A stretch of DNA of 64,000 nt from an uncultured Planctomycetaceae bacterium (GTDB taxonomy: Bacteria > Planctomycetota > Planctomycetia > Planctomycetales > Planctomycetaceae): NCBI GenBank assembly GCA_963813715.1, contig CAWFAK010000012.1, positions 1 to 64,000 on the forward strand. Reading direction: 5' to 3'. A program made the translations under genes and the position numbers. A model generated the notes under the pieces. The model was not told the origin of the DNA. It saw only the letters and a list, made by a program, of their open reading frames with translations, and did not search any database. Positions within the stretch are counted from its first letter, which is position 1; every line of letters starts with the position of its first letter. Shown here piece by piece: positions 7,685 through 11,583 of this stretch.

Positions 7685-9470
7685 ATGGATTTGGTCCGCC
7701 ACCTCCGCGCCCGCGTCGGCGCTGTGCCGCGCACGTTGGCCCGCCGCGAAGCCCGCCACTTCCTCCGCGCTGCCAAGACGTGTCGCACCGCCCAGACGCG
7801 GACGCTGCTCGGCCTGCTCGCCCTTAACAGCGGCTCTCGCTTCTCTCGCGATCACCGGCTCGACGGCGTCCGCACGGTCAGCCAGTTTCGCCGCCGTCTG
7901 CCCGTCGCCGACTACGAGTATTTCCGCCCCTATATTGAAGAAGTCAAAGCGGGACGCACCGATTCGCTGCTGGGACCGAAGAACCGCCTGCTGATGTTCT
8001 CGTTGACCAGCGGGACCACATCGCAGTCGAAATACATCCCGATCACCGAACGGTTCTTGAGCGATTACCGCAGCGGCTGGCAAGTCTGGGGCATTCAGGC
8101 GATCGAACGCGCATCCCGGCATCAACAGCCGCCACATCCTGCAGCTCAGCAGCGACTACGATCTGTTTCGCACGCCCGGGGGCACGCCCTGCGGCAACAT
8201 CAGCGGGCTGGTGGCCGCCTGCCAGAAGCGGATCGTCCGCACGATGTATACGGTGCCGGGCGTCGTCTCGAAAATCCGCGACTCCGATTCCAAGCTCTAC
8301 ACGGCTATGCGGCTGGCGATCGCCGATCGGCACGTCGGTATGGTGATGACCGCCAACCCGAGCACGCTGATCCAACTGGCCAAGCTGTCGGACGCGAGGA
8401 AAGAAGACCTGATCCGCGATATCGCCGACGGCACGCTCTCGTCGGCGGAGAACGTCCCCGGCGAAGTTCGCGAAGCCCTCGCAGGGCAAATCGGCCGCAA
8501 GGGGCACGACCGGGCGCGAGAGCTCGAAGCCATCGTCGATCGCACTGGCACGCTTTATCCCAAAGATTTCTGGCCCGATGCCCAGCTCCTGGCGATCTGG
8601 ACCGGCGGGAGCGCGGGCGCCTATCTGTCGCACTTGCGGCGGTACTACGGCCAGATTCCCGTTCGTGACCACGGTCTGTCCGCCAGCGAAGGCCGGATGA
8701 CGATTCCGATTGCCGACCACTCGGCCGACGGCATCCTCGACGTCACCAGCCACTTCTTCGAGTTCATCCCCGAGGAAGAATACGGCCGCCAGGACGCGAT
8801 CGTGCTCGAAGCGCACGAGCTGCAGGAGGGACGCAACTACTACATCCTGCTGACCACATCGTCGGGGCTCTACCGCTACAACATCTTCGACGTCGTCCGC
8901 TGCACGGGTTTTTACCACTCGACGCCGATGATCGAGTTCCTGCACAAGGGAGCGCACATCGCCAACGTCACGGGCGAAAAGATCTCCGAGTCGCAAGTCG
9001 TCCACGCGGTCCGCAGCGTCATCGACGAGATGTCGCTCACGCTGTCGCACTTCACCGTCAGCCCAGTCTGGGGCGATCCGCCGCGGTACCAACTACTGAT
9101 CGAGAAGGGCGATGTGGGCGTGCCGGTCGGCGATTCGCTGGCTCACAAAGTCGACGAACGGCTCAAGCTGCTCAACTGTGAATACAAAGAGAAGCGGGCG
9201 ACGGGCCGCCTGGCCCCGATGAAATGGATGCCCCTGCCGGACGGCACCTGGGCCGTCTTCTCGAGCAACCGCCGCAAGAACTCGGGCGGCAGCCTGGAAC
9301 AATACAAGCATCCGTGCCTGGTGCCCGACCTGGAGTTCGGCTCGAAGCTGTTCGTCGAGATGGCGGCCATCGGCGCACCGTCCGTCGCCCCAACGGGCGT
9401 CAAGGATTCACGCGACATCATCCTGCTGCCGGAACCTCCGCGCGACGCCACCCGCCGCGCCGCCGGCTGA
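7685..9470 (+). CDS. GH3 (auxin-responsive promoter) family acyl-adenylating protein; frameshift near 8105
   Basis: [44 protein letters not shown]. Confidence 0.88.
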
Positions 9471-9497
9471 CGCACAAACCGCTCACGCAGAAAATTC

Positions 9498-9553
9498 CGC
9501 GGGGACTCGCCGGTGCCGAACGGGCGCCGGCGACTTCCCCGCGCGTTTTTTTT
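9498..9553 (+). terminator. Rho-independent terminator after the GH3 gene
   Basis: Stem cgcggggactcgccggtgcc / ggcgccggcgacttccccgcg followed by T8. Confidence 0.8.
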
Positions 9554-9681
9554 GCCCTGAGTATTGCGTGATCGGGTGAAGCTATGAGGAGCGGTAAGAG
9601 GTAGGCCGAGCCGGTTGGTGGTTGTGCTTGAACGTGGTAAACGGAGTTTGTTGCAAACCGTTTCCACAAAAGGACACCGCC

Positions 9682-10702
9682 ATGAAATTTGCCGGCTGCG
9701 ACCTACACAAGCAGACTATCACGATTTGCGTCGTCGACCAATTGCGGCGGGTTTTGGAGCGTCGGACCGTGCGTTGTGGCGAAGAGCGGAGCATCCTCGC
9801 ATTTTTCGAGAGGCTCGGGGAGTTCGAGGCTGTCGTGGAAGCGACCGCCAGCTACGAATGGTTCGTGCGATTGATCGAGCCCGTGGCCCATCGCGTGTTG
9901 TTGGCTCACCCCAAGAAGCTGCGTGTGATTGCCGAGAGCACGCGTAAAAGCGATCGGCTCGACGTGCAAATCCTCGCGGAGTTCCTGGCCTTGGACATGA
10001 TTCCGACGTCTTACCGGGCGACTCCGCGGCAGCATGAGCATCGACGACTGGTGCGTCAGCGGGGCGGCGTTCAACGGCGATTGACCTCCGTCAAGAACCG
10101 TCTGCGCCGCATTCTCTGCGACTACAACGCGGATCGTCCCAGTCTGTTCACCGTGGACGGGTTGGCGTATCTCGCCCAAGTGCCTCTCTTGGGAGCGGAT
10201 CGGTTCGCCGTGGATCAAATGGTCGAAGAGTTGCACTTCGGGAGGCGTCAGCTGCTGGCCGTCAACGCCCGGCTGAAGGAGTTCGCCGAGGCGGCGCCGC
10301 TTTGCGAGCAGGAAGGCGCGGACGCTGTTGCGGACGATCCCCGGAGTGGGCTTCGTGACCACCGAAGTTGTGCTGGCCGAGTTGGCAGACATTGATCGCT
10401 TCGGTTCGCAAAAGCGGGTCGTCGCTTACGCAGGGCTCTCACCGGGTCAACGCGAGAGTGCGGGCAAGAGTCGGGAGCTGCACCTGGAGAAGAACGGTTC
10501 GACGCTGCTGCGCTCGACGCTGGTGGAAGCCGCCTGGCGGCTGGTTCAGCACTCGTTACGTTGGCGTCGGATTTATGAACGATTGAAGTTGCGCGTGCGT
10601 GCCAAGAAGGCGATCGTCGCCGTGGCCCGCCGGTTGTTGTGCCTGATGACAGCGATCTTGAAGACGGGCCAACCCTACTCGCTCAGCCAGCAACCGACTT
10701 AA
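9682..10702 (+). CDS. IS110-family recombinase (DEDD RuvC-like domain plus Tnp20 domain); frameshift near 10315
   Basis: GCDLHK, VVEAT, KSDRLD; TIPGVG, AYAGLSPGQRESAGK, AIVAVARRL. Confidence 0.95.
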
Positions 10703-10759
10703 ATCCCTGACCTTGGCAGGAGAGCACAAAACAAAACATCGATCGAAAGCGCTGCGACG

Positions 10760-10915
10760 ACCCACAGACGACCCCGCCCCCGGCCATGAAGGCGTTCCCT
10801 CAAAAGAGCGACCTTCGAAGGGTGAATGGGGCGTCTCTCGAAAGTCGGCTTCCTGGCGACATCGACGGACCTGTTCCAGACCGTTGGTGATCCCGAATAG
10901 ATGGTTGAGCGTACC
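10760..10915 (+). ncRNA. Predicted IS110/IS1111 bridge (seek) RNA with target- and donor-binding loops; ends approximate
   Basis: Two stem / internal loop / stem modules whose loop strands match this element's own target flanks and ends (see findings). Confidence 0.8.
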
Positions 10916-10978
10916 GCATCGCCCAGATCACCACTTCAAACGCAAAAACCAACCCTTGACGCTACCTTCTCATAGATG

Positions 10979-11099
10979 GCCGGGCGCTCCGCGAAGCGGA
11001 AGCCCCGGAACCTCGGCTACACCTGCGGCGATGGGCACTGAAAAGCTGCGGCCGGCGAACAAAACGGGGGCTTCCACAACGCGGAGCCCCCGCCACCCG
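10979..11099. repeat. REP-like inverted-repeat element (family C) interrupted by the IS110; its first bases are at 9573-9578
   Basis: Rejoined arm cgggtggccgggcgctccgcg versus the reverse complement of 11080-11099, cgggtggcgggggctccgcg. Confidence 0.75.
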
Positions 11100-11123
11100 T
11101 CCGTTGCGTGCTCCGCAATACGG

Positions 11124-11583
11124 CTACGTCTGCATGTAATCGGCAAGCCCGGACAGGCAGCCTTGCCAGCCGTGCTGGTGCTGATCGCGAAGTTCGCGAT
11201 TCGGAATTCGCTCGTGCGTTACAATCACCTCGGTCTCTGCTCCTTGCGGCTCGAATTGCACAGTGACGCGCTCCGCGGTCGCAAAGACGCCTTCCAACTG
11301 CCAGGTGTAGACCAGTCGTCGCGGCGGCTCGATGACTTCGAACTCGCCGACGATCCACAGCACCCGTTGATCGGGGAGCCGATTGCCGATGCGGTAGTGG
11401 CCGCCCGGCTGCAAGTCGACCTCGGCCGCGATGCAAACGACGCCCTCTGGTCCCCACCACGCGCGAAGCTGATCGGGCTCGGTCCAGGCGGCGAATAAAC
11501 GCTCGGGCGAGGCTCGGATCGTTCTCCGCACGACGAGAGTTTCCATCTGCGCCGGAATCCGCTTGGGGCGTGAATTCACTCAT
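11124..11583 (-). CDS. SRPBCC/AHSA1-like domain protein; 5' end probably frameshifted
   Basis: ASPERLFAAWTEPDQLRAWWGP, DLQPGGHYR, IEPPRRLVYTW, HQHGW. ATG at 11583 overlaps the ArsR stop (ATGA). Confidence 0.9.

What the first reader, a model, noticed from the sequence alone, without database searches (positions are those of the whole stretch)
10760..10915. Readable bridge RNA in the 3' end of an IS1111-type element, with all four guides assignable
Seen in sequence: the empty target is cggg-TG-gccgggc and the circle junction (donor) would be ctcataga-TG-aagctatgag. Loop 1 has an outer stem gacgacccc/ggggcgtc, a 5' guide cccggcca (10779-10786, exact reverse complement of core plus right target flank), an inner hairpin gaagg...ccttc, and a 3' guide gggtg (10820-10824, left target flank plus core). 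Loop 2 has a 5' guide gcttc (10848-10852, reverse complement of gaagc at the element left end), an inner stem catcgacgg/ccgttggtg, and a 3' guide atagatg (10897-10903, element right end plus core). Both loops share the same polarity. The 3' guides extend to match the post-insertion junctions: gggtgaa equals 9574-9580 and atagatgg equals 10972-10979. Established knowledge: IS110-family recombinases use a bispecific non-coding RNA, encoded downstream of the gene in IS1111-type elements, and 'handshake' pairing next to the guides is described for IS621. Inference: this is a planctomycete RNA-guided recombinase with a TG core whose specificity can be read directly and might be reprogrammable. The system class is known; this instance and its guides may not be.
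Basis: partly seen in the sequence, partly recalled or inferred. Interest (0 to 1): 0.85.

Follow-up and report, generated by a model that had tools for sequence, protein, structure and literature searches.

The report
Bridge RNA of a planctomycete IS1111-type element
The 3' non-coding end of a small mobile element in a soil planctomycete encodes a two-loop guide RNA whose four short guides spell out the element's insertion site and its own ends; it is a clean new example of the RNA-guided recombinases described in 2024, not a new kind of system.

Summary
Window 9579-10976 is one of 8 copies of a 1.4-kb IS110-family element of IS1111 type. All 8 lie between NGGG-TG and TG-GCCGGG-like flanks, and 6 of 8 sit at the 5' edge of a REP-like hairpin. 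All four guide strings occur once each, in the expected order; 0 of 200,000 shuffles of the non-coding region reproduce this. A contig from a public run joins 9578 to 10982, which is the empty site. In about 20 related planctomycete elements (47-75% recombinase identity) the loop-1 guides track each element's own flanks (0 of 20,000 permutations reach the observed score for either guide). The loop-2 5' guide tracks the left end, the core letters in both 3' guides change to CG in CG-core elements, and the base after the loop-2 3' guide tracks the first right-flank base. The loop-1 outer stem has compensatory changes in 6 of 9 pairs. The recombinase is frameshifted in this copy but intact (339 aa) in 4 sibling copies. 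Not shown: that the RNA is made, the circle junction, or any activity. Verdict: new member of a known kind, with a directly readable 11-12-bp target.

The parts
9574..9578 (+). Left target flank GGG plus the TG core at the left junction
   Evidence: All 8 copies have NGGG-TG directly before aagctatgag. Contigs from 4 public runs lose identity to the window at 9572-9575.
9579..10976 (+). The insertion sequence itself: 1398 bp here, 1399 bp in the 7 other copies, plus one TG core
   Evidence: 8 copies at 97-100% identity in the window's genome, with their ends aligned. The empty-site contig joins 9578 to 10982.
9582..9591 (+). Left subterminal inverted repeat CTATGAG(GAG), 3 nt in from the end
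   Evidence: It is the reverse complement of 10966-10975 at 9 of 10 positions. The CTATGAG core is kept in most relatives.
9682..10395 (+). Recombinase gene, N-terminal frame (RuvC-like DEDD domain). A 1-nt insertion near 10312-10315 breaks the frame.
   Evidence: This frame gives 237 aa here, against 339 aa in copies L002, L006, L007 and L008. The base at 10315 is left out in the contigs of all 4 runs laid. E53, D91 and D94 align with the IS621 catalytic residues.
10328..10702 (+). Recombinase gene, C-terminal frame (Transposase_20 domain with Ser259), out of frame in this copy
   Evidence: ORF list. PF02371 covers residues 214-298 of the intact protein. S259 aligns with S241 of IS621.
10768..10776 (+). 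Loop-1 outer stem, 5' strand (gacgacccc)
   Evidence: Pairs with 10828-10835. It has 9 pairs, 6 of them with changes on both sides, and 98.9% of cells paired across 21 elements.
10778..10786 (+). [quoted passage not shown]
   Evidence: An exact 8-nt match to this copy's flank and a 9-nt match to the flank of 5 of 9 insertions. Cognate versus non-cognate score 5.47 against 2.57; 0 of 20,000 permutations reach it.
10788..10816 (+). Loop-1 inner hairpin (gaaggcg...cgaccttc, with a bulged A)
   Evidence: Found in the minimum-energy folds. The same shape, with different sequence, appears in most of the 21 relatives. The 3 base pairs at its foot all show changes on both sides.
10820..10826 (+). Loop-1 3' guide (left target guide) gggtg plus the 2-nt extension aa, which matches the first two bases of the element
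   Evidence: Equals 9574-9580. The non-core part tracks the flanks in relatives: 3.77 against 2.11, with 0 of 20,000 permutations reaching it. Examples are TACCC-TG and TAGGC-CG.
10828..10835 (+). Loop-1 outer stem, 3' strand (ggggcgtc)
10837..10841 (+). Candidate loop-2 outer stem, 5' strand (ctcga)
   Evidence: Pairs with ttgag at 10905-10909 in the fold of 10766-10912. Conserved, but only 1 of 5 pairs has a change on both sides, and one pair is unpaired in 12 of 21 elements. Weakly supported.
10848..10853 (+). Loop-2 5' guide (right donor guide) gcttc(c); pairs with G-AAGC at the element's left end
   Evidence: 5 of 6 positions match the reverse complement of TGAAGC. Across 20 elements the mean match is 4.30 of 6 against 3.62 in permutations (0 of 20,000). 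The first 3 positions score 2.45 against 1.70 (1 of 20,000).
10855..10894 (+). Loop-2 inner hairpin (ggcgacatcgacgg...ccgttggtgatccc), with the same bulged-A design as the loop-1 hairpin
   Evidence: Folds. Its basal pairs G:C/G:C become A:U in L055 and L056. The variable part pairs in most of the 21 relatives.
10897..10904 (+). Loop-2 3' guide (left donor guide) atagatg plus the 1-nt extension g, which matches the first base of the right target flank
   Evidence: Equals 10972-10979. The core letters change to CG in the CG-core elements L060 and L061. The 8th base equals the first right-flank base in 16 of 19 elements, including C/C in L045 and A/A in L048.
10905..10909 (+). Candidate loop-2 outer stem, 3' strand (ttgag)
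10956..10961 (+). TTGACG box 15 nt before the right end; possibly the -35 of a junction promoter
   Evidence: A TTGAC(A/G/C) box sits at a fixed distance (15-16 nt) before CATAGA in every relative read. No sigma-70-type promoter scored in the linear copy. Its function is inferred only.
10966..10975 (+). Right subterminal inverted repeat (ctt)CTCATAG, 1 nt in from the end
10977..10984 (+). TG core and right target flank GCCGGG at the right junction
   Evidence: the collapsed element contigs end at 10984 in the three RNA-library runs X16, X18 and X19
10979..11097 (.). The target's setting: a REP-like hairpin (GCCGGGCGCTCCGCGAAGCGGAAGCCCCGG) and an inverted partner copy
   Evidence: 6 of 8 copies share this right flank. 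The 20-mer empty-site motif has 25 matches at up to 2 mismatches in the genome, against 0 for the reversed control. The long inverted repeat also showed up as a spurious microRNA match.

Best explanation
Window 9579-10976 is a non-autonomous copy of an active IS1111-type member of the IS110 family; its recombinase gene is frameshifted. Its 3' non-coding end (about 10766-10912) encodes a bridge RNA (seekRNA) of roughly 150 nt with two internal loops of the same design.

**Loop 1 reads the target GGG-TG-GCCGGG(G).**
[quoted passage not shown] **Loop 2 reads the joined element ends, ...CATAGA-TG-AAGC....**
[quoted passage not shown] **Proposed action.** A DEDD/Ser recombinase supplied by one of the four intact sibling copies would bind the RNA, bring the excised circle and the target together, and exchange strands at the TG core. 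The element then lands at the 5' edge of a REP-like hairpin.

**What is shown.**
- The element ends, the empty site and the single TG in it.
- The guide matches and their covariation with targets and ends in relatives.
- The loop-1 stems.
- The family of the protein.

**What is inferred from published work on IS621 and ISEc11.** That an RNA is made, that it binds the protein, the circular intermediate, and strand exchange at the core.
For: 1. **Exact guide matches.** They sit at the stated coordinates. All four in order occur in 0 of 200,000 shuffles.
2. **Copies.** There are 8 copies with the same ends, and all lie in NGGG-TG...TG-GCCGGG-like sites. The two deviant right flanks are TGGCTGGG (a G:T wobble to the guide) and TGGCCGAG.
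3. **Empty site.** A contig shows cgggTG-gccgggg. The genome holds 19 unoccupied exact 11-mers, about 8 of them in the REP-like repeat.
4. **Covariation across relatives** at 47-75% protein identity:
   - Right target guide, cognate 5.47 against non-cognate 2.57 contiguous pairs, 19 elements, 0 of 20,000 permutations.
   - Left target guide (non-core part), 3.77 against 2.11, 20 elements, 0 of 20,000 permutations.
   - Single-base switches include guide CCCCAGCCA with target TGGCTGGGG (L044), TCGGGCTTA with TAAGCCCGA (L048, L049), and TCGGGCCTA with TAGGCCCGA (L050).
5. **Loop 2.** The 5' guide tracks left-end bases 2-4 (2.45 of 3 against 1.70; 1 of 20,000 permutations). The core in both 3' guides is CG in the CG-core elements. 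The base after the 3' guide equals the first right-flank base in 16 of 19 elements, including the C/C and A/A cases.
6. **Structure.** On 21 sequences 93.2% of cells are paired, and 12 of 19 pairs have changes on both sides (0 of 500 shuffles reach this). Sliding the partners by 1-3 columns drops pairing to 40-51%. Both inner hairpins fold in nearly every relative despite different sequences. The 147-nt fold of the window sequence gives both loops.
7. **Protein.** PF01548 + PF02371; NF033542 at 217.8 bits; E53, D91, D94 and S259 align with the IS621 catalytic residues (residue roles from PMC11208158).
8. **Published order.** The guide order matches what is published for IS1111 seekRNAs. The two-loop length (about 150 nt) is close to the 154-nt long seekRNA of ISEc11.
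Against: - **No proof of an RNA.** Contigs from three RNA-library runs cover the element, but element-to-flank depth ratios (about 14, not computable for X18 because its flank depth is 0, and about 5.5) are like that of the DNA run (about 8.6). Such libraries can carry DNA.
- **No promoter or terminator** scored next to the RNA.
- **No circle junction** in the 4 runs laid.
- **No Rfam family** matches.
- **Thermodynamic support is modest.** z = -0.64 for 10703-10978 and -1.70 for 10766-10912.
- **The loop-2 outer stem is weak.** Only 1 of 5 pairs has a compensatory change, and one pair is unpaired in 12 of 21 elements.
- **The loop-2 5' guide is imperfect.** It is 5 of 6 here and only 2-3 of 6 in L021, L045, L020 and L060.
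- **Exceptions to loop-1 covariation**:
  - L059 has no match on the right flank.
  - L022 and L053 match on only 3 contiguous positions.
  - L021 and L055 each carry one mismatch.
- **Loop 2 may not be needed for movement.** In ISEc11 an 82-nt RNA carrying only the target loop supported transposition (PMC11187229 section 10), so the requirement for loop 2 in IS1111-type elements is not settled in print.
- **Non-independence.** The relatives are kin and not independent, so the permutation counts are not true probabilities.
Confidence: 0.9

Rival explanations
1. Only loop 1 is a working guide module (a short seekRNA). The loop-2 matches would then be a leftover or a cis-acting DNA feature of the right end, for example an internal copy of the end or a protein site, and not an RNA donor guide.
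For: - An 82-nt ISEc11 RNA carrying only the target loop supported transposition, even better than the 154-nt form (PMC11187229 section 10).
- The loop-2 3' guide never varies outside the core and extension, because the right end is invariant.
- The loop-2 outer stem lacks covariation.
- The loop-2 5' guide is imperfect in several elements.
Against: - The base after ATAGATG follows the first base of the target flank, which is not part of the element (G, C and A cases; 16 of 19 elements). A duplicated end would not do this.
- The loop-2 5' guide follows left-end bases 2-4 (1 of 20,000 permutations).
- The loop-2 inner hairpin has the same bulged-A design as loop 1 and keeps its pairing with different sequences.
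- Durrant et al. predict two-loop bridge RNAs in the right ends of IS1111 elements (PMC11208160, passages read).
Confidence: 0.07
2. The guide-like strings are chance or compositional matches in a G+C-rich non-coding tail, or part of the long open frame 10713-11498, and have no role in targeting.
For: - The two 5-mers alone occur in 14-17% of shuffles.
- A 261-aa open frame overlaps the region.
- The fold energy is not exceptional.
Against: - All four strings in order occur in 0 of 200,000 shuffles.
- The guides covary with the flanks across about 20 elements.
- The open frame runs out of the element into unrelated flank and differs between copies.
- The RNA region is 98-100% identical in all 8 copies, and the only changes lie in the hairpin tip.
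Confidence: 0.01
3. The family is extinct in this genome. The copies are fossils and the RNA, even if once functional, no longer acts.
For: - 4 of 8 copies, including this one, carry a frameshift.
- No circle junction was seen.
Against: - 4 of 8 copies keep the full 339-aa frame with the catalytic residues.
- Copies are 97-100% identical.
- Occupied and empty forms of this very site coexist in public soil data.
- Contigs in 20 runs of 15 studies hold the element, and many different flanks are seen as loose ends.
- The same 1-nt insertion occurs at four different loci, which suggests movement after the break.
Confidence: 0.1

Closest known systems
ISEc11 and other IS1111-family elements with a seekRNA (Siddiquee et al. 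2024, PMC11187229; abstract and sections 6, 9, 10, 13 read)
   Same: - DEDD recombinase of the same length (ISEc11's is also 339 aa).
- Subterminal inverted repeats.
- The long non-coding region lies downstream of the gene.
- Two short target matches that overlap at the insertion point, with the top-strand complement 5' of the bottom-strand complement.
- Natural re-direction between relatives by changes in the guides.
   Different: - Host phylum: Planctomycetota, from record titles.
- The protein is only about 30-34% identical to the nearest plasmid-borne IS110-family proteins.
- The Ser motif reads S-A, not S-G or T-G.
- Loop 2 here shows covariation with the element ends, whereas the paper's assays found the target-loop RNA sufficient.
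- No experiment has been done on this element.
IS621 bridge RNA and recombinase (Durrant et al. 2024, PMC11208160; Hiraizumi et al. 2024, PMC11208158; passages read)
   Same: - A bispecific RNA with a target loop and a donor loop.
- Each loop has one guide per DNA strand, overlapping at a 2-nt core.
- The long guide is 5' and the short guide 3' in each loop.
- 1-2 extra 'handshake' bases follow the short guide and match the other DNA partner.
- Catalytic E, D, D and S align.
- A REP-type target.
   Different: - The RNA lies at the right end, not the left.
- The core is TG, not CT.
- Relative to the direction of the gene, the strands read by the 5' and 3' guides are swapped. The two designs coincide only if the DNA is read on the other strand (my inference).
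- The protein match covers only the C-terminal domain well (E = 2e-13).
REP-targeting IS110-family elements of Pseudomonas (ISPpu9, ISPpu10; Pares-Guillen et al. 2025, PMC12288879, abstract read; ISPa11 recalled as REP-targeting)
   Same: Several copies per genome, inserted at one position of repetitive extragenic palindromes, with a small RNA gene downstream of the recombinase gene.
   Different: [quoted passage not shown]
- Here the RNA region occurs only inside the 8 full copies, and its guides match the target.

Membership tests
IS110-family RNA-guided DEDD recombinase | N-terminal DEDD (RuvC-like) domain plus C-terminal Transposase_20 domain | tested here: met
   PF01548 (E = 1.8e-14, residues 4-148) and PF02371 (E = 5.7e-23, residues 214-298) on the intact sibling protein. 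NF033542 scores 217.8 bits against a cut-off of 140.
IS110-family RNA-guided DEDD recombinase | Catalytic D, E, D, D and Ser (IS621 D11, E60, D102, D105, S241) | tested here: met
   E53, D91, D94 and S259 align with the IS621 and ISCro4 chains. D7 is placed only by its position at the start of the Pfam match. In the window's own copy the frame breaks before the Ser domain.
IS1111 group of the IS110 family | Subterminal inverted repeats of 7-17 bp | tested here: met
   CTATGAG (9582-9588) and CTCATAG (10969-10975), extending to 9 of 10 positions; they lie 3 nt and 1 nt in from the ends. Range taken from PMC11208160.
IS1111 group of the IS110 family | The longer non-coding region lies downstream of the recombinase gene | tested here: met
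   103 nt upstream (9579-9681) against 274 nt downstream (10703-10976). Criterion from PMC11187229 section 6.
IS1111 group of the IS110 family | Recombinase of 330-350 aa | tested here: met
   339 aa in 4 intact copies.
IS1111 group of the IS110 family | GL-P----S(t)G motif | tested here: inconclusive
   The protein reads GLSPGQRESAG. G, L, P and S are in register, but Ser is followed by A and then G. The paper lists SG, TG and occasionally TA.
IS1111 group of the IS110 family | Placement among IS1111 transposases in a tree of ISfinder entries | not tested
   No ISfinder sequences were available. The best plasmid-borne relatives are 30-34% identical and are annotated only as IS110 family.
Bridge RNA / seekRNA | Target loop with two guides that read opposite strands and overlap at the core | tested here: met
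   The guide order matches that published for IS1111 elements.
Bridge RNA / seekRNA | Guides covary with the targets of related elements | tested here: met
   0 of 20,000 permutations for each loop-1 guide, with exceptions L059, L022 and L053.
Bridge RNA / seekRNA | Donor loop whose guides match the joined element ends | tested here: met
   Matches of 7 of 7 and 5 of 6 here. Covariation of the 5' guide, the core and the extension base. The outer stem of this loop is weakly supported.
Bridge RNA / seekRNA | Conserved stems that frame the loops | tested here: met
Bridge RNA / seekRNA | The RNA is transcribed and bound by the recombinase | tested here: inconclusive
   Contigs of 3 RNA-library runs cover it, but the depth ratios are like those of the DNA run. 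Binding cannot be tested with these tools.
Bridge RNA / seekRNA | Circular intermediate with the junction RE-core-LE | tested here: inconclusive
   No back-joining contig in the 4 runs laid. Contigs drop rare forms.
Bridge RNA / seekRNA | Guide changes redirect recombination | not testable with these tools
   Only natural re-direction among relatives was seen.

The most novel reading that the evidence does not exclude
This planctomycete clade would be a natural series of about 20 mutually re-targeted IS1111-type bridge recombinases in which loop 2 is a true donor loop. That would settle, for IS1111-type elements, a point left open between the two 2024 descriptions.

In the same clade only the first core base may have to be shared by donor and target. 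Elements L048, L049 and L050 have a donor core TG (in both 3' guides) but a right target guide that reads TA. They sit with TG at the left junction and TA at the right junction, in REP variants that really carry TA. If the second 'core' position is simply carried along with its own side, the crossover in these enzymes is offset from, or narrower than, the 2-nt core of IS621.
Probability: 0.25. Interest if true: 0.55.

Novelty: new member of a known kind. Interest (0 to 1): 0.38.

Why it matters
RNA-guided IS110/IS1111 recombinases are being developed as genome-insertion tools that make no double-strand break. Most tested examples come from Proteobacteria and Firmicutes. This finding adds:

- **A distant, compact system.** The protein is 339 aa and the RNA about 150 nt, with an 11-12-bp target that can be read straight from the sequence.
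- **A natural panel.** About 20 relatives keep the scaffold but differ in their guides, which is a ready-made map of the positions that can be reprogrammed.
- **Comparative support on an open point.** The second loop of IS1111-type RNAs appears to read the element ends, and its extension base appears to read the target.

For genome annotation it explains 8 repeat copies and their fixed position next to REP-like hairpins in this genome. It does not reveal a new mechanism.

Tried and rejected
- **Rfam.** Scanning 9300-11300 at E up to 10 gave only three sub-threshold microRNA look-alikes. Two of them are the REP inverted pair outside the element. No curated family covers this RNA.
- **Fold of the full 276-nt tail.** It recovered loop 1 but folded loop 2 differently, pairing GGTGATC with GATCACC at about 10927. 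The relatives read do not keep that pairing, so I dropped it.
- **Promoter and terminator scan.** No promoter, and only one terminator-like site inside the gene, so it is uninformative. A junction promoter from the conserved TTGAC box was considered, but the spacing to TATGAG in the joined ends would be 21-22 nt, too long for a standard sigma-70 promoter. This is left open.
- **RNA-library contigs.** They cover the whole element, but their depth ratios resemble the DNA run, so I do not count them as expression. They showed no circle junction either.
- **All-against-all scan of alignment columns.** It was too noisy to define the loop-2 outer stem.
- **tblastn against plasmids.** It gave only distant (30-34% identity) 'IS110 family' hits, which do not help IS1111-group placement.
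- **Earlier notes of this scan.** Nothing was on record.
- **Paper search for 'bridge RNA' with 'Planctomycet'.** It returned 0 papers in the held library. That is not proof that the element is unlisted in ISfinder, which I could not query.
- **Supplements.** The supplementary figures and tables of the 2024 papers (predicted IS1111 bridge RNAs, target logos) were not read and may already list relatives.
Full report
**1. What is in the sequence**

- The left junction reads ...gatcggg-TG|aagctatgagg (TG at 9577-9578).
- The right junction reads ...ctcataga|TG-gccgggcg (TG at 10977-10978).
- The four proposed guides each occur once in the 3' non-coding region:
  - cccggcca at 10779
  - gggtg at 10820
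  - gcttc at 10848
  - atagatg at 10897
- In 200,000 shuffles of that region the 8-mer appears in 1.4%, the 7-mer in 0.8%, both in 0.0095%, and all four in order in none. The two 5-mers alone are not significant.

**2. The element and its copies**

- The window's genome (7.49 Mb in 18 contigs) holds 8 copies at 97-100% identity.
- Aligned with their flanks, all 8 share the same ends. All are preceded by NGGG-TG and followed by TG-GCCGGG or a near variant: L005 has TGGCTGGG and L007 has TGGCCGAG.
- 6 of 8 continue into the same REP-like hairpin, GCCGGG(G)CGCTCCGC-nnn-GCGGAAGCCCCGG.
- The uninterrupted 20-mer GGGTGGCCGGGGCGCTCCGC has 25 matches at up to 2 mismatches in the genome, against 0 for the reversed control.
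- There are 19 unoccupied exact GGGTGGCCGGG sites, about 8 of them in the repeat. The 11-mer is not more frequent than composition predicts.
- The RNA region and both ends occur only within the 8 full copies.

**3. The recombinase**

- 4 of 8 copies (L002, L006, L007, L008) encode an intact 339-aa protein.
- The window's copy and L003, L004 and L005 share a 1-nt insertion after codon about 211, and L005 has a further deletion.
- The intact protein has PF01548 and PF02371. It passes NCBIfam NF033542, 'IS110 family RNA-guided transposase', at 217.8 bits against a cut-off of 140.
- Its nearest solved structures are ISCro4 and IS621 (E about 1e-13). E53, D91, D94 and S259 align with the residues that Hiraizumi et al. 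name as catalytic.
- Its nearest plasmid-borne relatives are only 30-34% identical.

**4. Evidence from public runs**

- The element is held by contigs of 20 runs from 15 studies, mostly soil. Six of these runs are recorded as RNA libraries.
- I laid three RNA-library runs and one DNA run on 9400-11150:
  - In the three RNA-library runs the element assembles as a collapsed repeat contig spanning 9573/9574-10984; in the DNA run X2 the contigs span 9574 to 11083.
  - All four leave out one base at 10315, so the intact frame is the common form.
  - Many different sequences continue beyond 9572-9575 and beyond 10984 or 11009-11017, which means many insertion sites.
  - One X19 contig joins 9578 to 10982 with GCCG between. 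That is the empty form of this very site, with a single TG.
  - No back-joined (circle) contig appeared.
  - Element-to-flank depth ratios in the RNA-library runs resemble the DNA run, so transcription is not shown.

**5. Relatives and covariation**

- Searches of GTDB genomes returned relatives at 47-75% protein identity in 20 of 397 other genomes of the same family, plus a few more. Their record titles name Planctomycetaceae, Planctomyces and Pirellulales.
- I read the upstream and downstream regions of 30 loci. From 39 insertions, grouped into 21 distinct elements, I extracted the ends, flanks and four guide positions.
- The scaffold is conserved while the guides differ. The 5' guide of loop 1 follows each element's right flank:
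  - CCCCAGCCA with TGGCTGGGG (L044)
  - GGCGTGCCA with TGGCACGCC (L020)
  - TCGGGCTTA with TAAGCCCGA (L048, L049)
  - TCGGGCCTA with TAGGCCCGA (L050)
  - CCGGGCCCA with TGGGCCCG (L052, L063, L069)
  - CTTGTCCCA with TGGGACAAG (L070)
  - CCCGGGGCCA with TGGCCCCGG (L056)
- The 3' guide of loop 1 follows the left flank:
  - TACCC-TG in four copies (L029, L031, L034, L036)
  - TAGGG-TG (L058, L064, L070)
  - CAGGG-TG (L055, L056)
  - TAGGC-CG (L060, L066)
- Scoring every guide against every element's flanks gave the following, with 0 of 20,000 permutations reaching either observed value:
  - mean cognate 5.47 against non-cognate 2.57 for the 5' guide (19 elements);
  - mean cognate 3.77 against non-cognate 2.11 for the non-core part of the 3' guide (20 elements).
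- Exceptions:
  - L059 has no right-flank match.
  - L022 and L053 match on 3 contiguous positions; L053 is 5'-truncated.
  - L021 and L055 each carry one mismatch.
  - L020 and L022 each have a mismatch next to the core on the left.
- The elements are kin, so these counts overstate independence.

**6. Loop 2**

- The right end (CATAGA) is invariant, so the body of the 3' guide cannot covary.
- Its core letters are CG in the CG-core elements (L060, L061; also L066). The core letters of the loop-1 3' guide change in the same way.
- The eighth base equals the first base of the right target flank in 16 of 19 elements. This includes the informative C/C case (L045) and A/A case (L048, L049). It fails in L059, L060 and L061.
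- The hexamer before the loop-2 inner stem matches the reverse complement of core plus left end at a mean of 4.30 of 6 positions, against 3.62 in permutations (0 of 20,000).
- Its first three positions pair with left-end bases 2-4 at 2.45 of 3, against 1.70 in permutations (1 of 20,000). The pairs seen are AGC/GCT, AAC/GTT, CAC/GTG and CTC/GAG.
- In the window the match is 5 of 6, with a C opposite the core T.

**7. Structure**

- A MAFFT alignment of 21 RNAs gave an RNAalifold consensus containing the loop-1 outer stem and the foot of the inner stem.
- On a structure that I specified, 93.2% of cells pair and 12 of 19 pairs have changes on both sides. 0 of 500 shuffles reach these values, and slid controls pair at 40-51%.
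  - The loop-1 outer stem has 6 of 9 pairs with compensatory change.
  - The loop-2 basal pairs change G:C to A:U in two related sequences.
  - The proposed loop-2 outer stem (ctcga/ttgag) has only one compensatory pair, and one pair is unpaired in 12 of 21 elements. It remains a candidate.
- Folded one by one, both inner segments form hairpins of the same design in nearly all 21 sequences: a 4-5-bp foot, a bulged A on the 3' strand, then a variable stem.
- The 147-nt window segment folds into both loops (z = -1.70). The full 276-nt tail does not, for loop 2 (z = -0.64).

**8. How it most likely works**

The mechanism follows the published model. In IS621 the left guides pair with the bottom strand and the right guides with the top strand, and the core is included in all four pairings (PMC11208160). 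Loop 1 here specifies GGG-TG-GCCGGG(G). Loop 2 specifies the joined ends CATAGA-TG-AAGC.

The order of the guides agrees with what Siddiquee et al. report for IS1111 seekRNAs.

In IS621 the handshake bases lie 3' of the short guide and pair with the other DNA partner after strand exchange (PMC11208158). If the DNA here is read on the opposite strand, each loop has:
- a long same-sense guide at the 5' side;
- a short complementary guide at the 3' side;
- 1-2 bases after it that match the partner DNA.

That is the IS621 design. This mapping is my inference.

The window's copy cannot make the recombinase, but it has intact ends and RNA, and four siblings can supply the protein. The same frameshift at four loci suggests that this has already happened. 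Gene conversion between copies is the alternative.

**9. Comparison and novelty**

- The system class was described in 2024. Durrant et al. already predicted bridge RNAs in the right ends of 93% of ISfinder IS1111 elements.
- No Rfam family matches this RNA.
- The held paper library has no paper combining 'bridge RNA' with 'Planctomycet'.
- ISfinder and the papers' supplements were not consulted.
- I rate this a new member of a known kind. It is well supported by comparison and untested by experiment.

Noticed in passing
L048, L049, L050 (relatives in genomes G107, G108, G092): These elements have TG at the left junction but TA at the right junction. Both 3' guides read TG, while the right target guide reads TA. 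The host REP occurs in all four variants GGT[AG][AG]GCCCGAAT, so the natural target carries a TA core against a TG donor core. This hints that only the first core base must be shared, or that a G:T wobble is tolerated. Only 3 insertions were seen.
   Followed up: partly
window about 10312-10315; copies L003, L004, L005: The same 1-nt insertion breaks the recombinase frame in 4 of 8 copies at different loci. The contigs of all 4 public runs laid lack it. This suggests that broken copies were moved in trans, or that the copies underwent gene conversion.
   Followed up: partly
window 10956-10961 and the same place in all relatives read: A TTGAC(A/G/C) box lies at a fixed 15-16 nt before the right end. 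In the joined ends it would sit 21-22 nt from TATGAG of the left end. It may be the -35 of a junction promoter, but the spacing does not fit a standard sigma-70 promoter.
   Followed up: partly
window 10979-11097: The insertion site is one arm of an inverted pair of REP-like units. The partner unit on the minus strand reads GGGTGGCGGGGG, one mismatch from the target, and is unoccupied. Pairs of this kind recur in the genome (for example C5:1203263/1203403 and C17:618902/618999).
   Followed up: partly
L046, L022, L029, L065, L060, L061 (RNA loop 1): In 6 of 21 elements the right target guide ends in C followed by U, so it cannot pair with the first core base. In the other 15 it ends in CA or TA.
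   Followed up: no
L053 (genome G130), upstream of the truncated recombinase gene: The element lacks the first 37 codons. The DNA in their place encodes a reverse-transcriptase-like stretch (...RYADDFVILC...), probably a group II intron inserted into the element.
   Followed up: no
L059 and L067 (genome G051, contigs C21 and C39): Two nearly identical copies have identical flanks on both sides, so this is a duplicated or doubly assembled locus. Their right flank does not match the right target guide at all, and one copy has ATAGATCG in place of ATAGATGG.
   Followed up: no
L044 (genome G172): The match between the loop-1 3' side and the left flank runs to 12 nt (GCGACGGGTGAA), reaching into what should be the inner stem. 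It may be chance, or the target may be a repeat.
   Followed up: no
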